Part shown: in pieces, positions 4,512-38,365 of the stretch | How the letters are laid out: the number at the start of each line of letters is the position of its first letter | Numbering within the stretch: position 1 is the stretch's first letter | Source: Eledone cirrhosa | Lineage: Eukaryota | Length of the DNA: 64,000 nt | NCBI GenBank assembly: GCA_964016885.1 | Contig: OZ024740.1 | Coordinates: 145,638,001-145,702,000, forward strand | Direction: 5' to 3' | Translations under genes and position numbers: made by a program | The notes under the pieces: model-generated | Databases searched by the model: none | What the model was told of the DNA's origin: nothing | What the model saw: the letters and a program-made list of their open reading frames with translations, nothing else

Positions 4512-7137
4512 CAATAATAATAACGACAACAACAATAATAATATACATATACATATATATATACACACACACGCACACACATAAGCATATCTACACACAC
4601 AGACACACGATAGCAACTAACAGCGCTGCGATCGAATATGGCTTTTTAGCCCAGCCAATGGTCTAAAATGTCTTGCACAGAGTCGGCAATCAAAACATTC
4701 ACTGGGAATAGTGGGCTGTGGTTGGAGTTTGTGTACTTTTGCATGTCGCTTGAGCCCTCCTGCTGATTTACATTCTCTACCACATGTTTGGCAAGCATGA
4801 TGAGTAGCATCTCCAACAGCAGCCTGGTAGTCAACCACTGGTCTTACTTTATGACTGCGAAGATGACTTTCTAGTCCAGCTTTGCTTAGGCAGAGTCTCG
4901 TACATACGCTGCATGTCAGCACCATAGGAGGACCCTCGCCGTCTGGAAGTGCAACAGCAATGCCCTTCCTCACATCCCGCTTTACTTTCTCGTATGCGAT
5001 TCGAGATGCCTCAAAGGCAACTTTTCCCTCATATACAGTCTTTCTCCATTTATTACGATCAGCAGCAATATTCTCCCATGTATCAGCAGAGATGTTAGCG
5101 TCTTTCAGAGAGGCTTTCAAGGAATCCTTATACCTCCTTTTTGGTTTATGTGGCGGTCGTTTTCCTTTAACCAACTCTCCATAAAAGAGTTGTTTTGGTA
5201 CTCTAGAATCCTTCATCCTGGCAAGGTGACCACTCCAACGGAGCCGTTGCTTAAGCACAAGAGCTTCTATACTGACACACATAGAGCTTTCCAAAATCTC
5301 GACATCACTGATGTGGTCCCTCCAGTGAACGCCATGGATCCGTCTGAGACACATCTGATGGAAACGCTCCAATTGCTTAAGGTGGTGTCGATATGTGACC
5401 CAGGTCTCGCAGGCATAAAGAAGACAAGAGAGCACACATGCCCTGTACACCTTTACCTTTGTCCTCCTGCATATGTCTCGCCGACCCCAGAGTCGCCTTT
5501 CTAGCTTTCCGAAAGCATCACTTGCTTTCCTAATCCTAAGTGAGATTTCACTGTCAAGGTTGCTGTATCGATTGTCAGTGCTTCCCAGGTAGACAAACTG
5601 ATGAACCACTCCAACTCGTTTGCCATACACATAGATATTTGGTTCAGTGTACTGCTTACCAGGGGCAGGTTGGTACATGACGACGGTTTTCTTGAGACTG
5701 ACAGTCAGACCTAGGGCAGTGCAAGCGTCAGAAAATGCATTCAAAATGTGCTGCATATCAGTCTCTGTGTGCGCTACAAGATCGCAATCATCTGCATACA
5801 AGAGGTCTCTTATGATTGATGTAAACACTTTTGTCTTCGCAGCAAAGCGCCTGATGTTAAATACGCTGCCTGAGGTTCAATATCGGATGTAAACACCATG
5901 CTCGCAATTCCTCGGTGCTGGAATATCCCCCCGTTTCACTCCATTTTTTACTGAGATAGGCTCCGACATGTTACCCCCGACATTAACCCAAGCCTTCATG
6001 TCGTCATGGAAAGGAACTTATCAGGGCAACCAAGTTTCTGGAGAACCTTCCACAATGCATCTCTGTTAACAGTATCGAAAGCTTTTGTCAGATCGACAAA
6101 AACCTGATACAGATTCAAGCCTTGTTCCATGCACTTCTCCTGGAGCTGTCTAGCTGAGAAGATCATATCAGTAGTGCCGCGTCCAGCACGAAAACCAGAT
6201 TGACTTTCAGGAAGAACACAATCTGCAATGTGTGTCAGCAGACGGTCCAGAAGCATCCTACATAAAACTTTCCCTACGACAGAAAGCAATGATATACTTC
6301 TGTAGTTCCCACAATCGTTCCTGTTACCCTTTCCCTTGTACAAGACCACCATTACTGCATCTCTCCAGTCCTCAGGTACGGATTCATTAGCCCATATCCT
6401 GCCAAACAAAGAGTGAAGATGTTGCAGGAGTCTCTCACCACCATATAGTAGGAGCTCAGCATGTATGCCATCCATACCCGGAGATCTTCCACTGTTCAGC
6501 TTCGAAATAGCCACACTGCAACCTCCACAAGCGTCGGAGGTTCTGCGAGAGCTACTTTCACAGGACTTTCTGGAATGAGATTGAGGAAATCTTCACTGAC
6601 GACAGACGGCTGATTCAAAAGATCATCAAAGTGCTCTCGCCACCTTCGTAGAACTCCCTGTGAGTCACGAAGAAGTTCTTGGCCATCCTTGCTGCGAAGC
6701 GGTGTCACCAGAGAAGAAGACGGTCCATAAACCTCACGCAAGAGACTGTACAACAGCTTTGTGTTATTGGAATCTGACGCAGTTTGTATCTCACCAGCCT
6801 TCTCATTCCACCACTGATCCTTCATCTGAGAAAGACTCCGCCTAACACGTGATTTTACATCCCTGAGTTCCTCATGCAACGTATTCCTTTCCTGTGGTTT
6901 TGCAGTCAAGTAACGTGAGAGAGCACGCCTCTTATCAGCCAACAAGTCTTCTATATGTACATCATTCTCATTAAACCAGTCCTGATGTTTTCTCTGCACC
7001 AATCCCAGAACACGCCTGCCTACATCATGAACCGACTTTTTAAGGGTCAGCCAATCCTCACCAAGATCTGCAGCCTGCATCTCTTCTTCCAATGTCCTCT
7101 TCACATTTTTATCCTTAAGACGAGCAGCATTCAATCT
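4263..7137 (-). mobile_element. 5'-truncated RTE (BovB/RTE-1-like) LINE with three C-terminal C2H2-type fingers; disrupted
   Basis: ORFs 6496-7137, 5996-6514 (QSGFRAGRGTTDMIF, FVDLTKAFD) and 4617-5828 (LLYADD, LRWSGH, CxxC-x12-HxxxH). RTE-like terminus tggccataatcgataacgagggggcagccatcat at 4263-4296. Confidence 0.9.
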
Positions 7138-8318: not shown

Positions 8319-8390
8319 CATACATATATATATACATACATATATATATACATACATATATATATACATACATATATATATACATACATA
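7138..8390. repeat. Compound (TA)/(TACA) microsatellite with a ~24-bp higher-order unit
   Basis: Direct reading; source of the long spurious YI/MYV ORFs. Confidence 0.95.
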
Positions 8391-11300
8391 CAACACAGTT
8401 GTAGAATTAAAAACTAACTGAAAAGAAATATTACCCAAGCTGTGAATAACTTTAAATTTGATTCTGAGAGAACTTTGTTGAAACTTTTAAAGAAGATCAT
8501 CGACTATTTTGAAAAATAAATACGAAATATTAGTGAATAGACGAACTCATCATGGCAAAAAGTACAAGTCTCCTTCGACCAAATCGCAACTACAACCGTT
8601 GTACACAGTGGAGCTACGAGCTTAACAAAGTATTATATGAAGCATACAAACAATCTGAACCCCAAAAGTTTGGTCTTATGCAAAGGCTAAAAACTTTATG
8701 GAACTCCAAACACCCAGAATTAGACTTTTCTCCAAAGCATTTAAATGAACAGGCAAAACGTATCATTATATGTAAATTGATACATCTAACAGAATTGAGT
8801 GATACTACAAATACAGCCCTTGTAGACAACCACCCCACCTCCACTGACAGACAAAGAGAATGGCCAGCTAAATCTAACAGTGAACAGCTCACCAACAATT
8901 TTGCTGAAATCCATCCCACTTCCACTGAAGGGCAGCGAGAAAGGTCAGCTAACTCTAGTAGTAATTGTCACCACATCAACAACGAGGCTGAAATTCATGA
9001 CTCTACTGAACAAACAGAGCACCAAAAACTTGTGGGCACCCGACAAGTGATATGGAACGATATGTTTCAAGAGATACACAGCCTTAATGTGAGTGACAGA
9101 CCATACAACACCAGAATCAGTAAAGAACCCACTAAATTGGAATTGTAAGCGGTGAACGAAATAGCTGGCAATTATCTGAAGGCTATACGATCTAAAGGTG
9201 GAGAAACGACATTTGAAACGCTTAATGTTTTGTTATATGTTTCAGCTGTCACATTGCTATCATATAACACACATCTAAAAGCACGCAATCAAGATACAAA
9301 CAGAAAGCCTGAACCAGCGTGGATGCGAAATTTAAAAACCAAAATTTTGTCCCTGAGACGAAGTATCTCACACATCGCAGTCATTATGAAATGCAACATA
9401 GAGAGCAACTTCACACGAGACCAGGAAGACCTAAAGATAAAGTTAGAGAGACGATTTGGAGATACAAAATTTAAAACTTTGAACTCAAAATTACACCAGT
9501 TGAAACAACAACTCACAGCTACAACAGAAAGACTAAAATATAAGTCAACAGCACATAAACGACAAGTGCTAAATAGATTGTTTGCCAGAGATCCTAAATC
9601 AGTTTATCGCAGCTTCGGTGGCAAAAGCTCAATCCCTGTAAATGACACCCCTTCAAAAGAACAGGTTGAGAGCTACTGGAGATCTGTATGGGAAACGGAT
9701 GACGGATTCAACAGACAAGCTAATTGGCTAAAAGAACTGGAACAGGACTACTGCCAACATGTCCAGATAAAACAATATGACATAGATGGGTCAATACTGG
9801 AAACAGCTCTACAGAAAATGTCGAATAGGAAATCGCCAGGTCCAGACCTCATTACAGGATACTGGTTGAAGAATTTCACTTTCTATCGGCAAGATCTCAT
9901 ACGGCTGTTTACAGAAACCATTAAAGGCACACAAGAACTGCCCAGATGGTTATCAACTGCCACTACTCTCCTCATTCCCAAAAATAGCCAAACCACCCTT
10001 GCTAAAAATGACTGCCCAATAGCCTGCCAAAACATCATGTATAAATTATATACTGGGTGCCTTAACCTGTTCTTACAGGATCACTGTGCTACCAACAACA
10101 TCATAACACCTGAGCAAGCTGGTGGAAAGAGGGAGATGTGGGGTTGCATAGATCACCTACTAACCAACAAAATGATTCAGGAAAAAACAACAAAGAATCG
10201 CAGAAACATGACTGTGGTGTGGCTGGACTATCAAAAAGCATTTGATAGTGTACCTCATGGGTGGATTATTAAGGCTTTACAGTTAGCTAAAGTCCCACAA
10301 CCATTGGTAGCTGCTGTTGAACGCCTGACCAAGAACTGGTACACCAATTTGATCCTTAGAGGTGAGAAGGAGCAAGTTAAGACTGATAAGATACATTACC
10401 AGAAGGGCATCTTTCAGGGTGATAGCTTGTCAGTGCTACTCTTCGTTCTCTCACTGAATCCACTATCTTACCTACTCAGGAAACAAGGTGGACAAAGAAG
10501 TGGGCCCAGAAGTATCTCCCATCTTTTCTTTGTTGATGACCTGAAGTTGTATGGACCAAATATCAATGACATCAAGAAACAATTGGACCTCATTACACAA
10601 TTTTCAACCGACATCAAACTGAAATTTGGTGAGTCCAAGTGTGCATATCTGGCAGTAAAACGTGGAAGAGCTGTGCCCTCCTCTAGAAATCTAGAGATGA
10701 ACGGCCTGACAATACAACCTCTACAGTCAGGTGACAACTACAGATATCTTGGACAGGATGAGAATGTCAGATATGATGGACCCATAAATAAGGAGAGAAC
10801 CAGAACTGAATACCTCAGAAGAGTAAAGAAAATATGGTCATCAGAACTGTCAGCATACAACAAATACATTGCCCACAATACTTATGCTGTGCCAATTCTA
10901 ACGCCAACATTTGGCCTGCTGAACTGGTCATTGCAAGAACTAAGTGAGGTGGATGTTAGAACTCGAAAACTTCTCAGTGTTACTGGGAACTTTAACATCA
11001 ATGGTGATGTGGATAGGCTATACTTCTCACGCAAGGAAGGTGGCCGGGGTCTAAAATCAATATTAACAACATATTAGACCCAGATAGTAACACTGAAGCA
11101 ACACCTTCAACAGAGGATAAAGGTTGGCAACCATCTTGCCCAGGTTTATGAGCATGAAAAAAAAAATATCATTAGAATAGCAACTGATCTGGAGGAGAGA
11201 TATGGAATAAAGCTTGATATAAATCTCTCACCCAGAGAAATCGGAAGATCCCATTCAATGTTCAAACAAGATAAAAAAATTGACCAATTTACAGAAAGAG

Positions 11301-11912
11301 TTGTGCATGGATACTTGAGGCATAAAACACAGACCATAGAGGGGATAAACCACTCAAAAAGCCTGGCATGGAGTTCCGAAAAGTTTATGACATCACACCT
11401 CTATGCAATACAGGAACTCCCTACCAAATATCTGCTGCACAAAAGAGGAGGGCCAGCAGCTGACAATAAATGTAGGCTATGTAAAACAAAGATCGAGGAT
11501 GTAAGCCACATTGTTGCCAGCTGCGAAAGAATGTCATCTCGCTACTACCTCCCCATGAGACACGATGGGATAGATAGAACCATCTGGAACGCACTTCGGA
11601 AAACAAAATTAACAACAAACGAGGAGGAATATATTGAGACAGATGGCACTAAGGAATACTGGTGGAACCTGAAAATAAAAACTGCCACCAAATTAAAGCA
11701 CAACCGGCCTGATATTGTTGTTTGGAACCACACATTGAAAACGTGTTCTGTTGTGAAGATCAGCTGCCCACTTGATGTAAACGTTGTCAGAAAAATACAG
11801 GAGAAGGAGGACATCTACGGACCATTGATGAGTAGTTTACAAATCCAGTATCCAAGATACACCTTTAGCTTCTTACCCATCATTATTGGAGCTACGGGTT
11901 ATATACCAACCC
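8391..11912 (+). mobile_element. R4/Dong-like non-LTR retrotransposon (single ORF: myb-like N-terminus, RT, CCHC, restriction-like endonuclease); disrupted, 3' end missing
   Basis: ORFs 8552-9148, 9152-11077 (KSPGPD, WLDYQKAFDSVPH, GIFQGDSLS, HLFFVDDLK) and 11258-11912 (CRLC..H..C, RHD, NRPDIV). Stops at 9148 and 11077; frameshift near the A-run at ~11160. Confidence 0.88.
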
Positions 11913-11914
11913 GC

Positions 11915-12171
11915 TTGGCTGCTCAGCCGTTAATTTTCATAAGGAAAGTATATACTTTCGAACGTTCATCTATCTGGCAGATGGGTAAACGGTGCTGATG
12001 ATAGCTAACAAGCTTGAAACTAGTACATCGTTCCTGTGTCAGTGTTGAACAAAAAGGTGACGTGGTTGCCTTAACACCGTATGGCATAAATTCAGGCTGT
12101 TCAGTTTGTTGACAAACGAACAAAGCAGTCTGCTAAACTGATGCGTGCATATATGTATGTGTACCTGCATG

Positions 12172-12202
<31 letters not shown>

Positions 12203-12325
12203 GCATGCTACTGTACGTCTGTATACATATATGTATGTACGTATACATACATACTTACATTTAAGTAAGTGCCATACTAAGAGTGAGAAATGAAATTTCG
12301 TTTTTCGTTTTCATTTTTTTTTCCA
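11915..12325 (+). mobile_element. Divergent member of the HHR-bearing pLTR/retrozyme family, with tail hairpin
   Basis: Shares taattttcata, agatgggtaaa, the HHR, ttcctgt, cgtatg and the 3' ttaag..catac..aa.agtgag plus gaaa/tttc hairpin with 30583-31002. Confidence 0.75.
11988..12032 (+). ncRNA. Type I hammerhead ribozyme
   Basis: aacggtg CTGATGA t-agct aaca agct-t GAAA ctag TA catcgtt. Stem I 7 bp; stem II 4 bp with a T.T closing mismatch; palindromic ACTAGT stem III. Confidence 0.82.
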
Positions 12326-12327
12326 CT

Positions 12328-12358
<31 letters not shown>

Positions 12359-12498
12359 ATATATATATATATATATATTAGAAAGTGAGGTTTTTTTTAC
12401 AAATTGAAAAATAACCGAGGTGTCCTACACGAGTGAAAGTATAAAGAAAGTATAGAGAAAAGTATAGAGAAAAACCACAGACCCTCCATCTCAACTCA

Positions 12499-12536
12499 CC
12501 TTTTGAAAAGCAGAAGAACTGCGAAACCGGTAAAGG
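12499..12536 (+). ncRNA. Minimal type I hammerhead, U3-A8 core variant
   Basis: cctt TTGAAAA gcag aagaa ctgc GAAA ccgg TA aagg; palindromic ACCGGT; lies in a ~220-bp island between TA runs. Confidence 0.7.
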
Positions 12537-12735
12537 AACCAAATAAATATATATATTTAAAAAAAAAAAAAAAGACTCCAGTTGCATTTTCGATTTCATC
12601 TCTTTTTCTTTATATATATATATATATACATTCACATAGAGAGAGAGATTATAGTAGTGATCAGATTTAGTCAGGGGAAATCGAAGACTGTGTCAACATA
12701 CAGTGGTTTTTTTACTCAACAAGTGAATCACTTAT

Positions 12736-12825: not shown

Positions 12826-15800
12826 TCTATATATATAAAACTGAGGATGTCTGTCTGTGTGTGTGTGAGTTTGAATCACTAAAACTCAAGAAGCACCCAA
12901 TCGACTGTTTTCAAACTTTACACATGTAATACTTATGTTTCATGGAGTGTTCTGAGCAAAAAAAATTTCAAAGTTTCAATGCCCTAGGGAGCGCATTAGG
13001 CAATTTAGTGATCTCTCTCTATAATTCTTAGTCTTTCCCTTTTTAGAGAGATACATATAACGTTACGCCCTTATAATATCTGACTGTATGTCTGGCTGTC
13101 TGCATTACGTCACTTCCTACAATTCCATCTGCGTCCAGAACGCGCCCTTATAATATCTGTCTATGCCTGGCTGTCTATTGCCTCCGGTAATTCCGCCACC
13201 CTTGCTCAAGACAAATCTCACACTCATTCCCTAAACAGTTGCTAAGTGCACACAACTCTTCCTCACGTTTTAAGCCACAGTGTTGCTTACTTACGTACCA
13301 TGCTTTCGGGCGACTTCAGGCAGACCCTCCCTGTAATTCCCAAAGGTACACGAGCTGACTAGGCCCAAGCATGTCTGAAGTCATCTCCCCTATGGCGCCA
13401 TGTCAGGAAACTGACTCTTACAACCAACATGAGGGCTCAATTGCACGGTGACCAAACGTCCACTGACTTTGCACGGGACATTCTGAAGCTTGGCAACGGC
13501 AACATGCCTCTTGATGCTGAAGGCGAACTGGAAGTGTGGCCATTTGCAACTTCTGTTAATTCTGCAGCAGAGCTCAAAGACAAAGTGTTTCTGGATTTGC
13601 AACACCATTTCCAGGACCACGCATGGTTGTGCGGAAGAGCAGTGCTTGCTCCAAAAAACGCCACTGTTAACAATTTTTTCAACAACCTGCTACTGGATTC
13701 CCTTCCTGGTGCTCTTCGCAACTACAAGTCTGTTGGCACGATGTCCGATCTAAATGAAGTGGTGAACTTTCCACCAGAATTGCTAAACTCCTTACAGCCT
13801 CCGGGACTACCGCCCCACATGCTATGCCTTAAAGTAGGGACTCCTGTTATGTTGCTGCGGAATTTGCAGCCACCAAGGCTGTGCAACGGAACACGCCTGG
13901 CTGTAAAGAAAATGACGGACCATGTTATCGAAGCAACAATCCTCTCTGGGTACAGAAGACTGCAATTCCCGCTTCGGGTCTGTTTTGCCATGTCCATTAA
14001 CAAGTCCCAGGATCAGACTCTTTCTGTGGCCGGACTTCTATTGGAGGAGCCCTGTTTCTCCCACGGACAATTTACGTTGGGTGCACTAGAGTTGGCAGCA
14101 GAGAGAGGCTTTTTACATTTGCACAACGAGGGAAAACAAGGAACATTGTTTACAATGAGGTGTTATAAATGCAACAGCGACAAGGTAGGTTCATTATTGC
14201 CCTTTCTTAAACCAATCTGGTCGCAATTCGTACGGGCTACTTACTGAAACGTGTTTTTTCTACGGTTTAACCCTTTAATGTTCAACTGGCCAAAACCGGC
14301 CAAAACCGGTCAGAATTCTCTACCTCTTTCTGTTGAAACTGGCTGTAACTGGTCGCTCAAACTGATGTTAAGGGATTGTTCTCAAAATAAATACTTTCAA
14401 AATCTCATAGACTCGATATTATGTGAGATAATTATGCAAGGTAAAGCCTTTACCATGAAAATATAATAGTATATATAGAGTAATGTGAATGTTTAAGGGT
14501 TAAGAACCTTCAGCTAAGAACCTTCCCCTTCACAATTGGTGCGGCAATGTAAGGTCGTTAAGCGGATCGTTGTTTGTTGGGTGCTCTAGAGTTGGCAGCT
14601 AGGAGAGTCTTCTTGCATTTGCACAAGGGCGAGGTATGTTCGTTATCAACATTTCTTAAGGCAATCTGGTTGCCATTCATACGGCCTATTACCTGAAATA
14701 CATTTTCCCTCGGATTCAGGTGACTACCTTCAGAGATGGACCTTCCGCTTCGCACTCGGCGCGTCAATGTATGGCTGTTAAACGGACCGCGAACACATTC
14801 TGATTCATTCTAAAGGCTACCAGTGGAAGCAACCATAACACCTTCCTTCAAATGTCAGAGAACACAGTCAAAGTCACTATTAAGGGCTACAAGTGAACGC
14901 TCACATAGCCCTTTTTAGGGCCACCACTTGAAATTGTTGATGGTTACCCCTCCTTACTGGGGTGTCAGTGAACAGCTTACACGGCCCTTTTAAGAGCCCT
15001 TGAAATAGCTGATGGCGACCATTTTGTTTAAGGCTGCCAGTGAACGCGCACACGCCTCGGGGGCCCATTTTATTGCACCATTCCTCTTTAAATTTGTTAA
15101 ATTATACCCACAGTTTGGTAAACGTTTGTCCAGTTGCGTTTACTTACTAAGGTGCGGTGGACTCCTTCGAGAAGACTCCACATGCTGTCCGATTGCACGT
15201 CATGCCTTGCTCAAGCATTGCAGACTTCTCTCTGACATAAGTGGTGACATCTGTCCTGCTGACTCATGCCACTTTGATAAAGTACAAAAGCACCAAGCCG
15301 ATTTTCTCCATGTGGAAGGAGAAGCATACCTAATACTAATTGCATCAGAGTTTATTTTCTTTACATATCGTGCAGGCATGCAGTTGTCCCATAATTAGGT
15401 CTGTTGGCGGCCCATGTCGTGTTTCAGATGCATATAAAAAATTCAACTTTTTGATCCCCTAGGGCCCGCATTAGGTGAAAAAACTGTGTTTTTTCAGCTT
15501 TTTAGGGGTAATTTGACCGATTTCCTTGAAATTGTAACTATGTATTAGTCAGTCTCTTCTTCATACCGTGGTATGAATCCAACTTTTTTATGGCCTAGGG
15601 CGCACATTAGCCGATTTTCCTGAAATTTCAAGGCATATTATGCACATAAAAAAAAATTCATTTTCTTGGTGCCCTAGGTCCCGCATGAGGTGAAAACCTG
15701 CATTTTTTCCTGCTTCATCGAGGAAAATCTTAAAGATTATCCAGCCATCAGAGTATTCGGTTTATTTTCTTTACATATTGTCGAAGCATGCAGTTTTTCC

Positions 15801-28219: not shown

Positions 28220-29107
28220 ATATAATATATATAATATATAATATAATATATAATATAATAAATATATATATATATATATATAATATAAATATAATATATA
28301 TATAATATATAATATATATATAATATATATATAATATAAATATAATATATATATATAATATATATATAATATATATATATAATATATATATATAATATAT
28401 ATATATAATATATATATATAAATATATTATATATAATATATATATAATAATATATATATATAATATATATATATAATATATATATATAATATATATATAT
28501 AATATATATATATAATATATATATATAATATATATATATAATATATATATATATATAATATATATATATAATATATATATATAATATATATATATAATAT
28601 ATATATATATATAATATATATATATAACATATATATATTATAATATATATATATAATATATATATATATACTATATATATATAATATAATATATAATATA
28701 TATATAATAATATATATATATAATATATATATAATATAATATATAATATATATATAATATATATATAATATATAATATATAATATAATATATAATATATA
28801 TATATAATTATATATATATTAATATATATATATAATATATAATAATATATATATAAATATATATATATAATATATAATATAATATATAATATATATATAA
28901 TATATATATAATATTAATATATATATATATATATAATATATATATAATATATATAATATATATAATATATTATATAATATATAATATATATATAATATAT
29001 AATATATATATAATATATATATATATAATATATATATAATATATAATATATATATATATATATAAATATATAATATATATATAATATTATATATATATAT
29101 AATATAT

Positions 29108-29138
<31 letters not shown>

Positions 29139-29173
29139 ATAATATATATATATATATATAATATATATATAAT

Positions 29174-29204
<31 letters not shown>

Positions 29205-29223
29205 TATATAATATATAATATAT

Positions 29224-29329
<106 letters not shown>

Positions 29330-29485
29330 ATATATATATATATTATATATATATATATATATATAATATATATATATATATATAATATATATATAATATA
29401 TATTATATAAATATATATATATTTAATATATATAATATATATATATATATATGTAATATATATATATATTATAATATATATATAT

Positions 29486-29943
29486 CCAAGACAATGTCAC
29501 TGTGACCGAGACCTTTGGCGGTACTCAGTAACAGAGAAGACCCGCCTTACCTAAATACATAGTAAAACCTACTACAGCCAGTAGGCATCTCTAACAAAAT
29601 ACACCCGTCCCACCACCACCACCCACACCACCCCCATTCTATGTAAAGTTATGTTGGTGCCGCGCCATCCAGGCCGAAACAAATGAGATCGTGTAGGTGT
29701 CACGACAAAAAACACACAGTCCATGCTGTAATGTGGCCGTATAGGCAACACGGTAAAAACCTCCCAGACCCACACTGTAAATGTGGTTGGTGTTAGGAAG
29801 GGCATCCAACTGTAGAAAACCTGCCAGACAGTCCCTATGCGAGCAAGACAATCACTCTTGCCTCAAGTGGGACTACACCCCGTCCAAACCCATGCAAGCG
29901 TGGAACACGGACGTTAAACGTTGATGATGATGATGATGATGAT
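29486..29943 (+). mobile_element. RTE 3' end (subfamily of 409-3346)
   Basis: Matches 2779-3346; (GAT)n tail. Confidence 0.9.
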
Positions 29944-30418
29944 ATAATATATATAATATATATATATATATAATATATATATATAATATATATATATAAT
30001 ATATATAATATATATAATATATATATATAATATATATAATATATAATATATATAATATATAATATATATATATATAATATATATAATATATATATAATAT
30101 ATATATAATATATATATAATATATATAATATATAATATATACTATAAATATATATAATATATATATATATAATATAATATATATATATAATATATAATAT
30201 AATTAAGTTAAAGTGTACATCTACATATGTATACGGAAGTATTAGTATGCATATAAATACACACATGTATACATATGTACATGTACTCAGCTTTTCACTA
30301 GACACTTTACAGTGAGTGTCAGCTAGTCTGTATGTAACCACACAGGCGGACCGGGTTTTAGAGTCATACGAGTTTTCAAGGAAACACATTTCCTCTATTC
30401 TCCAGAGGGCCAGACAGG

Positions 30419-30463
30419 AATATTGGACTAGTTTCGATGTTATTACATCTCATCAGCAATATT
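30419..30463 (-). ncRNA. Type I hammerhead ribozyme (left arm)
   Basis: Minus strand: aatattg CTGATGA gatgt aata acatc GAAA ctag TC caatatt. Confidence 0.9.
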
Positions 30464-30666
30464 TACCCATCTTCCGGCTTCTCTGGAGAATTGTAAAAGC
30501 ACATATCGTTATATGCTTTTTCTATGAAAATTAGTAGTGGGTAGACTAATTTGCAATAGAACGTGAGTCATTGTACGCACCGGTCTACCCACTACTAATT
30601 TTCATAGAAAAAGCATATAACGATATGTGCTTTTACAATTCTCACAGAGAAGCCGGAAGATGGGTA

Positions 30667-30712
30667 AATATTGCTGATGAGATGTAATAAACATCGAAAC
30701 TAGTCCAATATT
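30667..30712 (+). ncRNA. Type I hammerhead ribozyme (right arm)
   Basis: aatattg CTGATGA gatgt aataa acatc GAAA ctag TC caatatt; predicted cleavage after C30705. Confidence 0.9.
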
Positions 30713-31274
30713 CCTGTCTGGCCCTCTGGAGAATAGAGGAAATGTGTTTCCTTGAAAACTCGTATGACTCTAAAACCCGGTCCGCCTGTGTGGTTACATA
30801 CAGACTAGCTGACACTCACTGTAAAGTGTCTAGTGAAAAGCTGAGTACATGTACATATGTATACATGTGTGTATTTATATGCATACTAATACTTCCGTAT
30901 ACATATGTAGATGTACACTTTAACTTAATTGTTTAAGCGTCAGTCATACAAAAGTGAGTTAGAAGCGAAACGAAATTTAATTTCGTTTCGTTATTTGTTT
31001 TTATATATAATATATATATATATAATATAATATATATATAATATATATAATATATATATAATATATATAATATATATATAATATATATAATATATATATA
31101 ATATAATATATATATATAATATATATAATATATATATAATATATATTAATATATATATAATATATATAATATATATATAATATATATAATATATATATAA
31201 TATATATAATATATATATATATATATATAATATATATATATAATATATATAATATATATATATATATAATATAT

Positions 31275-31316
<42 letters not shown>

Positions 31317-32566
31317 TATATATATAATATATATAATATATATATATATAATATATAATATTTATAATATATATATATATATAATATATATTTATATATA
31401 TAATATAATATATATATAATATATATATAATATATATATATATATAATATATATATATATATATAATATATATATAATATATATAATATATATATATATA
31501 TAATATAATATATATATATATATATATATAATATATATATAATATATATAATATATATTTATATATAATATATATATAATATATATATATATATAATATA
31601 TATATAATATATATATAATATATATAATATATATATATATATAATACATATATAATATATATAATATATATATAATATATATAATATATATATATATATA
31701 ATATATATATATATATAATACATATATAATATATATAATATATATATAATATATATATATATATAATATATATATATATATAATATATATATAATATATA
31801 ATATATAATATAATAACATATATAATATATAATATATATATATATATATATTATATATATAATTATATATAATATATCATATATAATATATAATATATAT
31901 ATAATACATATATAATATATATAACTATATATATAATACATATATAATATATATAATATATATATAATACATATATAATATATATAATATATATATAATA
32001 CATATATAATATCTATAATATATATATAATACATATATAATATATATATATATATAATATATATAATATATAATATATATATAATCTAATATATATATAT
32101 ATATATATATTATAGATATATATATAATATATATATATTATATATATAATATATATAAATATATATAAATATATAATATATACTATATATATAAATATAT
32201 ATATAGAATATATATATATAATATAATATATATATAATATATATATATATATAAATATATATACTATATATAATATATATTATATATATATATATATATA
32301 AATATATATATATATAATATTTATATATATATATATAATATATATTATATATATATATTATATACTATATAATATTATATATATATATATATATATAATA
32401 ATATATATATAATATATATAATATATATATTATAATATATATATAATATAATATATATATATATTAATATAATATATATATATATAATATATATATATAA
32501 TATATATATATATAATATATATATATAATATATATATAATATAATATTAATATATATATATAATAT

Positions 32567-32598
<32 letters not shown>

Positions 32599-32702
32599 AT
32601 ATATATAATGTATATATATAATAATATATATATATATATATATAATATATATATATATAATATATATATAATATATATATTATAATATATATATTATATA
32701 TA

Positions 32703-32750
<48 letters not shown>

Positions 32751-32782
32751 TATATATAATATATATATATATATATAATATA

Positions 32783-32823
<41 letters not shown>

Positions 32824-33018
32824 TTATATATATATAATATAATATATATAATATATATATATATAATATATATATATATATACTATATATATATATATAT
32901 ATAATATATATATATATATAATATATATATAATAATATATATTATAATATATATATATATATATATAATATATATATATAATATATAATATATATATATA
33001 ATATATATATATATATAT

Positions 33019-33180
33019 AGGAACGATCGACTTTCGTCAAATCGGACCGAGGGAACAATGTTTCCGTTGGTCTTTCCAATTGCTAATACTATCTATCGGT
33101 CGCAACTCCAGGTAGAAGGAGCAACGTGAAATAAAGTGTCTTGCTCAAGGACATAACGCATCGCCTGGTCCAGGAATCGA
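33019..33180 (-). mobile_element. Short island ending in a CORE-like SINE fragment; duplicated at 38200-38363
   Basis: Minus strand tcgattcctggacc..gtccttgagcaagacactttatttcacgttgct matches the SINE at 51290-51355. Confidence 0.7.
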
Positions 33181-33280
33181 TATATATATAATATAATATA
33201 TATATATATATATAATATATATATATATAAATATAATATATATATATATATAATATATATATATATATAATAATATATAT

Positions 33281-33920: not shown

Positions 33921-34304
33921 CTCTCAAAGTCAATGACACACGACCGTGACTTCTGGCGTCACGCAGTAATACAGGGTACCCGACCTCCCATGGGTACATG
34001 CTGAAGCATATAGACAATATGCCCCCCCCCCCCCCACTGCAAGGTGGCCGTGGAGGTGCCACGCAAAAAAGCACCCAGCCCACACTGTAAAGTGGACGTG
34101 TAGGCGCCACGAAAAAGCACCCAGCACTCACTGTAAATGAGGTTGGTGTTAGGAAGGGCATCCAGCTGTAGAAATCAAGCCAGATCAGTTCCTGTATGAG
34201 CAAGGCATGGTCAGCCGACCAGACACTGCCCACAACAGGACAACCCGTCTAACCCATGCTAGCGTGGAAGAACGGACGTAAAACGGTGATGATGATGATG
34301 ATGA
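33921..34304 (+). mobile_element. RTE 3' end (same subfamily as 42721-45750, opposite strand)
   Basis: Reverse complement of 42721-43102; (GAT)n tail. Confidence 0.9.
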
Positions 34305-34346
34305 TATAATATATATATATATAATATATATATATAATATAATATA

Positions 34347-34384
<38 letters not shown>

Positions 34385-34480
34385 TAATATATTATATATA
34401 TTATATATATTATTATATAATATATATATATATATAATATATATATATATATAATATATATATAATATATATATATATAT

Positions 34481-34513
<33 letters not shown>

Positions 34514-34514
34514 A

Positions 34515-34545
<31 letters not shown>

Positions 34546-34566
34546 ATATATATAATATATATATAT

Positions 34567-34597
<31 letters not shown>

Positions 34598-34695
34598 ATA
34601 TATATAATATATATATATAATATATATATATATTTTATATATATAATTATATATATATATGTAATATATATATATATATAAATATATATATATAT

Positions 34696-35152
34696 CCAAG
34701 ACAATGTCACTGGACCGAGACCTTTGGCGGTACTCAGTAACAGAGAAGACCCGCCTTACCTAAATACATAGTAAAACCTACTACAGCCAGTAGGCATCTC
34801 TAACAAAATACACCCCGTCCCACCACCACCACCCACACCACCCCCATTCTATGTAAAGTTATGTTGGTGCCGCGCCATCCAGGCCGAAACAAATGAGATC
34901 GTGTAGGTGTCACGACAAAAAACACACAGTCCATGCTGTAATGTGGCCGTATAGGCAACACGGTAAAAACCTCCCAGACCCACACTGTAAATGTGGTTGG
35001 TGTTAGAAGGGCATCCAACTGTAGAAAACCTGCCAGACAGTCCTATGCGAGCAAGACAATCACTCTTGCCTCAAGTGGGGACTACCCCCGTCCCAAACCC
35101 ATGCAAGCGTGGAACACGGACGTTAAACGTTGATGATGATGATGATGATGAT
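34696..35152 (+). mobile_element. RTE 3' end, duplicate of 29486-29943
   Basis: Near-identical, with the same truncation point. Confidence 0.9.
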
Positions 35153-35630
35153 ATAATATATATAATATATATATATATATAAATATATTATATATAATAT
35201 ATATATATAATATATATAATATATATAATATATATATATAATATATATAATATATATATAATATATATAATATATATATATATAATATATATAATATATA
35301 TAATATATATATTAATATATATATATATATAATATATATAATATATAATATATATATAATATATATAATATATATATAATATATATAATATATATATAAT
35401 ATATATAATATAATTAAGTTAAAGTGTACATCTACATATGTAATACGGAAGTATTAGTATGCATATAAATACACACATGTATACATATGTACATGTACTC
35501 AGCTTTTCACTAGACACTTTACAGTGAGTGTCAGCTAGTCTGTATGTAACCACACAGGCGGACCGGGTTTTAGAGTCATACGAGTTTTCAAGGAAACACA
35601 TTTCCTCTATTCTCCAGAGGGCCAGACAGG

Positions 35631-35675
35631 AATATTGGACTAGTTTCGATGTTATTACATCTCATCAGCAATATT
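35631..35675 (-). ncRNA. Type I hammerhead ribozyme
   Basis: Identical to 30419-30463. Confidence 0.9.
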
Positions 35676-35879
35676 TACCCATCTTCCCGGCTTCTCTGGA
35701 GAATTGTAAAAGCACATATCGTTATATGCTTTTTCTATGAAAATTAGTAGTGGGTAGACTAATTTGCATAGAACGTGAGTCATTGTACGCACCGGTCTAC
35801 ACCACTACTAATTTTCATAGAAAAAAGCATATAACGATATGTGCTTTTACAATTCTCCAGAGAAGCCGGAAGATGGGTA

Positions 35880-35924
35880 AATATTGCTGATGAGATGTAA
35901 TAACATCGAAACTAGTCCAATATT
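35880..35924 (+). ncRNA. Type I hammerhead ribozyme
   Basis: aatattg CTGATGA gatgt aata acatc GAAA ctag TC caatatt. Confidence 0.9.
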
Positions 35925-36244
35925 CCTGTCTGGCCCTCTGGAGAATAGAGGAAATGTGTTTCCTTGAAAAACTCGTATGACTCTAAAACCCGGTCCGCCT
36001 GTGTGGTTACATACAGACTAGCTGACACTCACTGTAAAGTGTCTAGTGAAAAGCTGAGTACATGTACATATGTATACATGTGTGTATTTATATGCATACT
36101 AATACTTCCGTATACATATGTAGATGTACACTTTAACTTAATTGTTTAAGCGTCAGTCATACAAAAGTGAGTTAGAAGCGAAACGAAATTTAATTTCGTT
36201 TCGTTATTTGTTTTTATATATATATATATATTATATATATATAT

Positions 36245-36276
<32 letters not shown>

Positions 36277-36415
36277 TATATAATAATATATAATATATAT
36301 AATATATATAATATATATAATATATATAATATATATATAATATATATAATATATATATATAATATATATATTATATATATATATATATATAATATATAAT
36401 ATATATATATATAAT

Positions 36416-36500
<85 letters not shown>

Positions 36501-36515
36501 TAATATATATATAAT

Positions 36516-36561
<46 letters not shown>

Positions 36562-36599
36562 ATATATATATATAATATAATAATATAATATATATATAT

Positions 36600-36636
<37 letters not shown>

Positions 36637-36691
36637 ATATAATATATATAATTATATATATATATAATAATATATAATATATATATATAAT

Positions 36692-36723
<32 letters not shown>

Positions 36724-36767
36724 ATATATATATATATATAATATATATATATATATAATATATATAT

Positions 36768-36804
<37 letters not shown>

Positions 36805-36898
36805 AATACATATATAATATATATAATATATATATATATATATAATATTATATATATATAATATATATATATATATATAATACATATATAATATATAT

Positions 36899-36931
<33 letters not shown>

Positions 36932-37276
36932 ATATATATAATATAATATAATATATATATAATATATATATATATATAATACATATATAATATATATATA
37001 TATATATAATATATATATATATATATAATATATATATATCATATATAATATATATATATATATAATATATAATACATATATAATATATATAATATATATA
37101 TAATACATATATAATATATATAATATATATATAATACATATATAATATATATAATATATATATAATACATATATAATATAATATATATATATAATAATAC
37201 ATATATAATATATATATATAGATAATATATATATATATATATATATATAGATATATATATATACATATATATATAT

Positions 37277-37330
<54 letters not shown>

Positions 37331-37425
37331 TAATATATATATATATATATAATATAATATATTATATATATATATATATAATATATATATATATATAATA
37401 TATATAATATATATATATATATAAT

Positions 37426-37458
<33 letters not shown>

Positions 37459-37504
37459 TATAATATATATATAATATAATATATATATAATATAATATAT
37501 ATAT

Positions 37505-37535
<31 letters not shown>

Positions 37536-37567
37536 ATATATAATATATATATATAATATATATATAT

Positions 37568-37635
<68 letters not shown>

Positions 37636-37731
37636 TATATAATATATATATATATAATATAATAATATATATATAAATATAATATATATAATATATATAT
37701 ATATAATATATATATAATATATATATATAAT

Positions 37732-37774
<43 letters not shown>

Positions 37775-37820
37775 ATATATAATATATAATATATATATAT
37801 AATATATATATATAATATAT

Positions 37821-37863
<43 letters not shown>

Positions 37864-37880
37864 ATATATATATATATATT

Positions 37881-37911
<31 letters not shown>

Positions 37912-37928
37912 TATATATAATATATTAT

Positions 37929-38028
<100 letters not shown>

Positions 38029-38056
38029 TATATATAATATATATATATATAATATA

Positions 38057-38115
<59 letters not shown>

Positions 38116-38122
38116 TATATAT

Positions 38123-38168
<46 letters not shown>

Positions 38169-38365
38169 ATATATATATATAATATATATATATATATATA
38201 GGAACGATCGACTTTCGTCAAATCGGACCGAGGGAACAATGTTTCCGTTGGTCTTTCCAATTGCTAATACTATCTATCGGTCGCAACTCCAGGTAGAAGG
38301 AGCAACGTGAAATAAAGTGTCTTGCTCAAGGACAATAACGCATCGCTCTGGTCCAGGAATCGATA

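What the first reader, a model, noticed from the sequence alone, without database searches (positions are those of the whole stretch)
11915..12325. Distant family member preserves the ribozyme by covariation
Seen: the sequence has largely diverged from the 30-kb element, yet CTGATGA, GAAA, ACTAGT, upstream agatgggtaaa and downstream ttcctgt are identical. Stem I changes to aacggtg/catcgtt, stem II to agct/agct, and the triplet to GTA. The tail hairpin is retained. Inference: selection on RNA structure across subfamilies; the conserved GGGTAA bulge and AAYA loop II may form the loop I-loop II tertiary contact. The T.T pair closing stem II may impair this copy.
Basis: partly seen in the sequence, partly recalled or inferred. 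Interest (0 to 1): 0.8.

Follow-up and report, generated by a model that had tools for sequence, protein, structure and literature searches.

The report
Hammerhead retrozyme monomer with family-wide U·U
This is one nearly complete unit of a 470-base, protein-free repeat that carries a hammerhead motif predicted to cut its own RNA and occurs in thousands of copies in this animal genome; its subfamilies keep the RNA's stems through paired changes, and it is likely a new member of a known kind of jumping element copied by Penelope-type retrotransposons.

Summary
11917-12330 is one near-complete monomer of a 471-bp tandem repeat with a type I hammerhead (core 11995-12025). Its exact 52-nt ribozyme occurs 8,079 times in the genome (control 0). 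Against the 30-kb element (61% identical overall), six stem pairs change, all on both sides. Further subfamilies add compensations, and a long-range helix outside the ribozyme also covaries. Selection on RNA structure is supported, although there are few independent lineages.

The T·T is not damage to this copy. It is in 98 of the first 100 listed of 25,219 matches with this stem II, and U10.1·U11.1 is documented in active hammerheads. This copy's real handicap is that it is solo: its palindromic helix III likely needs a partner ribozyme.

The adjacent R4-like LINE is unrelated and truncated at the junction. Insertions end at two fixed sites in (TA)n and are head-to-head with a one-sided tail, the Penelope-type pattern.

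Verdict: new member of the animal non-LTR retrozymes. The Penelope link is already proposed in print, and this scan noted the same pattern on other DNA, including a sister subfamily in this genome. Cleavage, expression and the loop contact are untested.

The parts
11917..12330 (+). Retrozyme monomer, subfamily A. Lacks about 47 nt of the 471-nt unit, has a 14-nt deletion near 12128 and 3 substitutions against a tandem copy.
11964..11987 (+). 5' arm of the extended (distal) helix I, ending in G-G paired to C12034/C12033 and a UA bulge (11986-11987)
   Evidence: predicted folds; alignment
11988..11994 (+). Helix I proximal 5' strand AACGGTG
11995..12001 (+). Hammerhead core C3-A9 (CTGATGA)
   Evidence: consensus as given in PMC3088659
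12002..12015 (+). Helix II: U10.1.U11.1 mismatch, 4 bp AGCT/AGCT, loop AACA
12016..12025 (+). G12-A14, palindromic helix III ACTAGT (12019-12024), A17; predicted cleavage between 12025 and 12026
12026..12050 (+). Helix I 3' strand CATCGTT-CC and distal 3' arm
12079..12086 (+). 5' strand of a long-range 8-bp helix (pairs with 12270-12277); 3 of 8 pairs change on both sides among subfamilies
12140..12255 (+). TA-rich long hairpin, conserved in all subfamilies
12260..12263 (+). 'Short' fixed insertion end (TTTA|AG, unit position about 250); used by other copies, not by this one
12264..12330 (+). 'Tail' of about 65 nt with a purine/pyrimidine hairpin; this copy ends at the second fixed site (unit 315) and runs into (TA)n
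12331..12378 (.). (TA)n target microsatellite
8389..11918 (+). Unrelated non-LTR retrotransposon (RT, zinc knuckle, restriction-like endonuclease; the R4/Dong-like label is recalled from motifs), truncated at both ends; joined to the retrozyme through a 2-nt GG overlap
30200..31003 (.). Subfamily B insertion (469-nt unit, G-C closing pair, GTC), head-to-head, left arm without and right arm with the tail; locally duplicated at about 35410-36205

Best explanation
The stretch is a solo, slightly shortened monomer of a 471-bp tandem repeat carrying a type I hammerhead motif; the family is likely an animal non-LTR retrozyme whose array transcripts are predicted to self-cleave as ribozyme dimers, would be ligated into circles, and are likely copied into (TA)n microsatellites by a Penelope-type reverse transcriptase. 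Shown: core and stems, tandem arrays, copy numbers, compensatory changes between subfamilies, two fixed insertion ends, head-to-head arms. Inferred: (1) transcription through an array; (2) two neighbouring ribozymes pair their ACUAGU palindromes into a 6-bp helix III and cut after GUA, releasing 471-nt monomers; (3) ligation by a host RtcB-type ligase, by analogy to PMC7229834; (4) nicked (TA)n ends prime at two conserved UUUA sites in mid-monomer and the enzyme runs round the template for several turns, giving back-to-back arrays. Covariation reflects selection on the source elements that founded each subfamily, not on this genomic copy. U.U at the base of helix II is a tolerated, lineage-fixed variant. 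This copy has no partner ribozyme in cis and is likely a dead end; it arrived after the LINE and replaced the LINE's last 200 or so bases.
For: Tandem units of 471, 469, 422-424, 467 and 434 nt with one ribozyme each. 8,079 exact copies; 88 of the first 100 lie in clusters of up to 15. Between subfamilies the core varies only at N7 and H17, the two free positions of the consensus. Covariation. A monomer with a 1-bp helix III costs 7-8 kcal/mol against the best fold, while the palindrome self-duplex gains 6.8. Circular folds are stable (z -8.5 to -10 for four monomers, -3.4 for D; inflated by TA repeats). 86 of 103 distinct 3' ends fall at two homologous sites and 88 of 103 abut TA runs; 28 of 28 inverted junctions are head-to-head. 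16 of 24 two-armed clusters have one short and one tailed arm. These match the PLE hallmarks in PMC8557442. GIY-YIG elements that end in (TA)n exist in the genome. 0 of 29 other LINE copies carry the ribozyme at this junction.
Against: No cleavage or expression data. No autonomous partner with a homologous end was seen in the 30 GIY-YIG loci fetched (of 150 scored, 10,597 candidates, output partly cut). The tail is 56-69 nt, longer than the 30-40 nt given for PLEs. The best monomer fold sequesters C3-G5 with the palindrome in A, B and C, and D misfolds helix II (p about 0.3). Only 1 of 9 Xenopus retrozyme dimers cleaved in vitro (preprint). The Rfam HH9 score is 18.5 against a gathering score of 52. 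Pair-count measures do not beat shuffles. C-family loci L121-L145 were fetched with a query ending at the tail, which biases ends toward that site.
Confidence: 0.75

Rival explanations
1. The ribozyme of subfamilies A, C and D is largely inactive or vestigial. The element is an orphan Penelope-type terminal repeat copied from uncleaved read-through transcripts, and its stems are kept because the carrier protein recognises the fold.
For: Non-standard 10.1-11.1 pair in A, C (U.U) and D (C.A). Insertion ends never sit at the cleavage site. Low in vitro activity of PLE hammerheads (PMC4209133) and of 8 of 9 Xenopus dimers.
Against: All catalytic letters and the palindrome are invariant across 61%-identical lineages while N7 and H17 vary (0.615^16 = 4e-4). 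A U.U axolotl ribozyme cleaves 22% as a monomer and much better as a dimer.
Confidence: 0.13
2. The arrays are satellite DNA that grew locally by unequal crossing-over from single pLTR-like seeds, as the 2026 preprint discusses, with no circular RNA step.
For: Long homogeneous arrays exist (one B array spans about 18 kb). The model is discussed in 10.64898/2026.07.22.740005.
Against: Many dispersed short arrays with both arms multimeric, both outer ends at fixed mid-unit sites in (TA)n and uniform head-to-head polarity look ready-made. Very long arrays may still have grown secondarily.
Confidence: 0.07
3. The hammerhead unit is part of, or is mobilised by, the adjacent R4-like LINE (3' UTR ribozyme or template-switch chimera).
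For: Direct fusion at 11917-11918 with a 2-nt overlap; microsatellites on both outer sides.
Against: 29 of 29 other LINE copies continue into their own 3' end and a mostly (CATA)n-type tail. No LINE 3' end directly abuts a retrozyme in those loci. The LINE piece is about 3% from its relatives while the monomer has 3 substitutions in about 400 nt.
Confidence: 0.05

Closest known systems
Animal non-LTR retrozymes (Cervera and de la Pena 2020, PMC7229834; parts 2-4 of 6 read)
   Same: Non-coding, low-GC tandem repeats with one type I hammerhead per unit, weak palindromic helix III, self-paired predicted circle, thousands of copies in several families.
   Different: Unit 422-471 nt, at or above the quoted 150-450 bp. 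(TA)n targeting, head-to-head arms and fixed ends are not described in the parts read. Expression and cleavage are shown there and untested here.
Axolotl HHR_Amex2 / Rtz_353 (PMC7229834) and U10.1-U11.1 variants (Perreault 2011, PMC3088659, passages)
   Same: U.U mismatch at the base of helix II in an amplified family; still cleaves, better as a dimer.
   Different: Amex2 has a 2-bp helix III with a tetraloop. Here helix III is 1 bp plus a palindromic tetraloop, like Amex1, so both weak features are combined.
Penelope-like elements and their pLTR hammerheads (PMC4209133 parts 1-2 of 4; PMC8557442 passages; Li, Clavereau and Pollet 2026, 10.64898/2026.07.22.740005, parts 1-3 of 5)
   Same: Partial tandems, inverted 5'-truncated arm, tail on one end only, (TA)n bias, dimer-type type I hammerhead. 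The preprint already argues that retrozymes are non-autonomous PLE derivatives.
   Different: No ORF, and no homologous autonomous PLE found here. Tail 56-69 nt. Canonical-type extended helix I rather than a minimal hammerhead. The preprint's evidence is co-occurrence and pLTR homology in vertebrates, not insertion anatomy.

Membership tests
Type I hammerhead ribozyme | Core C3 U4 G5 A6 N7 G8 A9, G12 A13 A14 A15, U16 H17 | tested here: met
   consensus from PMC3088659
Type I hammerhead ribozyme | Helices II and III closed, helix I open and pairing across the cleavage site | tested here: met
Type I hammerhead ribozyme | Standard pair at 10.1-11.1 | tested here: not met
   U.U; a documented tolerated variant, so not exclusionary
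Type I hammerhead ribozyme | Loop II to helix I tertiary contact | tested here: inconclusive
   AAYA and GGTA invariant in 9 of 9; no covariation possible
Type I hammerhead ribozyme | Self-cleavage | not testable with these tools
   needs in vitro transcription
Rfam hammerhead models | Score at or above gathering | tested here: not met
   0 hits at gathering in the window; HH9 18.5 bits against 52, E 0.11
Animal non-LTR retrozyme | [quoted passage not shown] | tested here: met
   (the family; the window copy is solo)
Animal non-LTR retrozyme | Non-coding, GC below 50%, no LTR pair | tested here: met
   GC 0.35-0.38; no own ORF of 120 aa in the window copy; PBS/PPT not searched
Animal non-LTR retrozyme | Expressed as linear and circular monomer RNA | not testable with these tools
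   no RNA run available for the stretch
Animal non-LTR retrozyme | Target-site duplication | not tested
   ends lie in (TA)n, where a duplication cannot be read
Non-autonomous Penelope-like element | Inverted 5'-truncated arm, head-to-head | tested here: met
   28 of 28 junctions (two are one duplicated insertion); 12 of 12 two-strand clusters among 100 listed hits
Non-autonomous Penelope-like element | Tail at one end only | tested here: met
   16 of 24 two-armed clusters; 5 of the other 8 end at an alignment limit; tail longer than published
Non-autonomous Penelope-like element | Homology to the pLTR of an autonomous PLE | tested here: inconclusive
   none seen in 30 GIY-YIG loci of 150 scored (output partly cut)
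3' part of the adjacent R4-like LINE | Linked in other LINE copies | tested here: not met
   0 of 29

The most novel reading that the evidence does not exclude
The family is a natural tuning series of one ribozyme. The most numerous lineages (about 25,000 matches, U.U; an older one C.A) outnumber the G-C lineage because a weakened, dimer-only hammerhead keeps RNA circles and multimers intact long enough for a Penelope enzyme to copy them from two conserved UUUA priming sites at once. The whole 470-nt fold, not only the ribozyme, is the recognition signal.
Probability: 0.2. Interest if true: 0.65.

Novelty: new member of a known kind. Interest (0 to 1): 0.33.

Why it matters
As a ribozyme it is ordinary: a dimer-type type I hammerhead in a retrozyme, with a known tolerated mismatch. 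Its value is as test material. Sister subfamilies with G-C, U.U and C.A at the most conserved helix II pair and GUC, GUA or GUU triplets have each amplified, so cleavage rate can be set against copy number. The fixed ends and one-sided tail make the proposed Penelope dependence of retrozymes and the priming mechanism directly testable. I found no description of this family in the held literature. Supplements of PMC7229834 and of the 2026 preprint were not seen and could list it.

Tried and rejected
Ribozyme as the LINE's 3' UTR: rejected. T.T as copy-specific decay: rejected.

Search for an autonomous partner: 30 GIY-YIG loci gave no homologous end (output partly cut); the neighbour element 12378-12612 led to no linked ORF in 25 loci. 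Rfam: nothing at gathering; the miRNA hits are TA-repeat artefacts.

Expression: no RNA holder listed. Other organisms' runs: of 8 runs laid, one (X1) holds the family at very high depth; X4, X6, X7, X11 and X20 hold scattered low-depth pieces; X5 and raw DNA run X23 (same organism label as X11) gave 0. Not used as evidence of host range or transfer.

R-scape-type phylogenetic significance could not be run; the alignment has only about two deep lineages. A by-sequence look-up of earlier findings gave nothing.

Full report
Observation. The motif is a complete type I hammerhead: helix I AACGGTG/CATCGTT, core CTGATGA, helix II T-AGCT-AACA-AGCT-T, GAA, palindrome ACTAGT and triplet GTA, with the predicted cut after 12025. 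The 30/36-kb element aligns at 67%. Homology extends outside the core (score 86 against a shuffle maximum of 34), except in the middle segment.

What the element is. A genome search with 11915-12135 gave 1,231 candidates; the 40 scored are about 100% identical over 212 nt and spaced about 470 bp apart. The loci show head-to-tail arrays of a 471-nt unit. The window holds one unit minus about 47 nt, with 3 substitutions and a 14-nt deletion. The exact 52-nt ribozyme has 8,079 matches, control 0. The 30-kb element is a sister family with a 469-nt unit, also in arrays. Further subfamilies were found: C (422 nt, CTGACGA, 15,010 pattern matches), D (C.A closing pair, GUU) and variants of B. The genome is 3.0 Gb and rich in TA repeats. 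I guessed a cephalopod from that, and earlier scan notes say the same; I did not test it.

The neighbour. 8389-11918 is a non-LTR retrotransposon (RVT_1 E 1e-22; the R4/Dong-like label is recalled). All 29 other copies leave the window sequence at 11918 and continue into their own 3' end. The join has a 2-nt GG overlap. The LINE is also 5'-truncated and about 3% diverged. The simplest reading is a later retrozyme insertion, or a later deletion, that removed the LINE's end; a template switch cannot be excluded from one case.

Covariation. Between A and B, three helix I pairs and three helix II pairs differ, all on both sides. Five stay paired and one goes from G-C to U.U. Random substitution keeps all 12 pairs in 21 of 500,000 trials. 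On nine representatives, 6 of 16 pairs change on both sides, 93.8% of cells pair, and slid controls give 35-48%. Pair 1.3-2.3 is G.U, U-A or U.G in three lineages. The counts of pairs and pair types do not beat the shuffles, so formal significance is not established. Within the core only N7 and H17 vary. On 10 full monomers, 17 of 78 predicted pairs have double-sided changes, including 3 of 8 in a helix joining 12079-12086 to 12270-12277. Single circular folds share one layout. Selection therefore acted on the RNA of the founder elements, beyond the ribozyme.

The T.T pair. 25,219 genomic matches have the AGCT/AGCT helix II; 98 of the first 100 listed have T at both closing positions. In the deepest public run the alternative A at 12015 is 0.1% of depth. 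U10.1.U11.1 is reported as the best-tolerated mismatch (PMC3088659, passage). An axolotl retrozyme with it cleaves 22% as a monomer and much better as a dimer (PMC7229834). It may slow the ribozyme, but it marks a successful lineage, not a decayed copy. What likely disables this copy is isolation. Helix III can form only 1 bp in a monomer (7-8 kcal/mol above the best fold, in which C3-G5 pairs with the palindrome), whereas two palindromes form a 6-bp duplex (-6.8 kcal/mol). The nearest same-strand relative in the window is 18.7 kb away.

Tertiary contact. Loop II is AAYA in all nine. The helix I bulge strand is GGTA in all nine, with GG paired to CC, leaving a UA bulge. Type I hammerheads use conserved reverse Hoogsteen contacts between these regions (PMC6155905, passage). 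Invariance fits that idea but is not a test.

How it moves. 86 of 103 distinct outer ends fall at two homologous positions (A 250/315, B 225-230/299, C 219/275), both at conserved TTTA motifs. 88 of 103 abut TA runs. Seven listed at the cleavage position are alignment limits, and C loci are biased toward the tail end. All 28 inverted junctions are head-to-head, as are 12 of 12 two-strand clusters among 100 listed hits. 16 of 24 two-armed clusters have one short and one tailed arm. Partial tandems, an inverted 5' arm, a one-sided tail and (TA)n bias are PLE hallmarks (PMC8557442, 12 of 15 passages shown). Because copying starts mid-monomer and passes the cleavage site repeatedly, the template is a circle or an uncut multimer (inference). 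TA-ending GIY-YIG elements exist in the genome, but none seen among the 30 inspected shares the retrozyme's ends (output partly cut).

Comparison. This fits the animal non-LTR retrozymes (PMC7229834) on every feature I could test. The PLE link was suggested there and argued in a 2026 preprint from co-occurrence and pLTR homology. Searches for retrozyme with octopus, hammerhead ribozyme with cephalopod and two broader ones listed no description of this family; supplements were not read. My reading was registered before I saw earlier scan notes. Those notes report the same anatomy for subfamily C and other units in this genome and in other genomes; they are not independent support.

Verdict. Real, structure-selected hammerhead in a solo monomer of a very abundant retrozyme family; new member of a known kind; interest 0.33. 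The most novel open reading, that a weakened ribozyme favoured amplification, has probability about 0.2.

Noticed in passing
window 12378-12612: A second small (TA)n-inserted, head-to-head element (730 candidates) with two 3' ends about 66 nt apart and a minimal hammerhead whose core reads TTGAAAA, i.e. U3-A8 in place of C3-G8, with palindromic CCGG. This variant is described for Schistosoma PLEs in PMC4209133.
   Followed up: partly
window 8389-11918: R4-like LINE about 97% identical to other copies, with stops at 9146 and 11075; intact copies end in (CATA)n-type repeats. It sits beside a microsatellite that cuts off a minus-strand RTE-like element (4617-7119).
   Followed up: partly
window 29068-33182 and 34304-38365: Local 4.2-kb duplication (93%) carrying the subfamily B insertion twice.
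   Followed up: no
L002-L120 and window: At least six further unrelated hammerhead families occur in these loci (helix III palindromes such as TATATA, CGCG, TGCGCA).
   Followed up: no
G000:C1:127666107-127685142: A subfamily B array of about 40 units of 469 bp.
   Followed up: no
L166-L194: Older subfamily D closes helix II with C.A and has a GUU triplet (most of the 100 listed of 1,159 matches).
   Followed up: partly
L196-L225: C-terminal GIY-YIG elements with a CxxC finger upstream (Neptune-like by the description in PMC8557442); one family ends in a purine/pyrimidine hairpin followed by (TA)n, a structural analogue of the retrozyme tail.
   Followed up: partly
window 13363-14247: Fragment resembling a Helitron PIF1 helicase (label recalled from motifs, not tested).
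   Followed up: no
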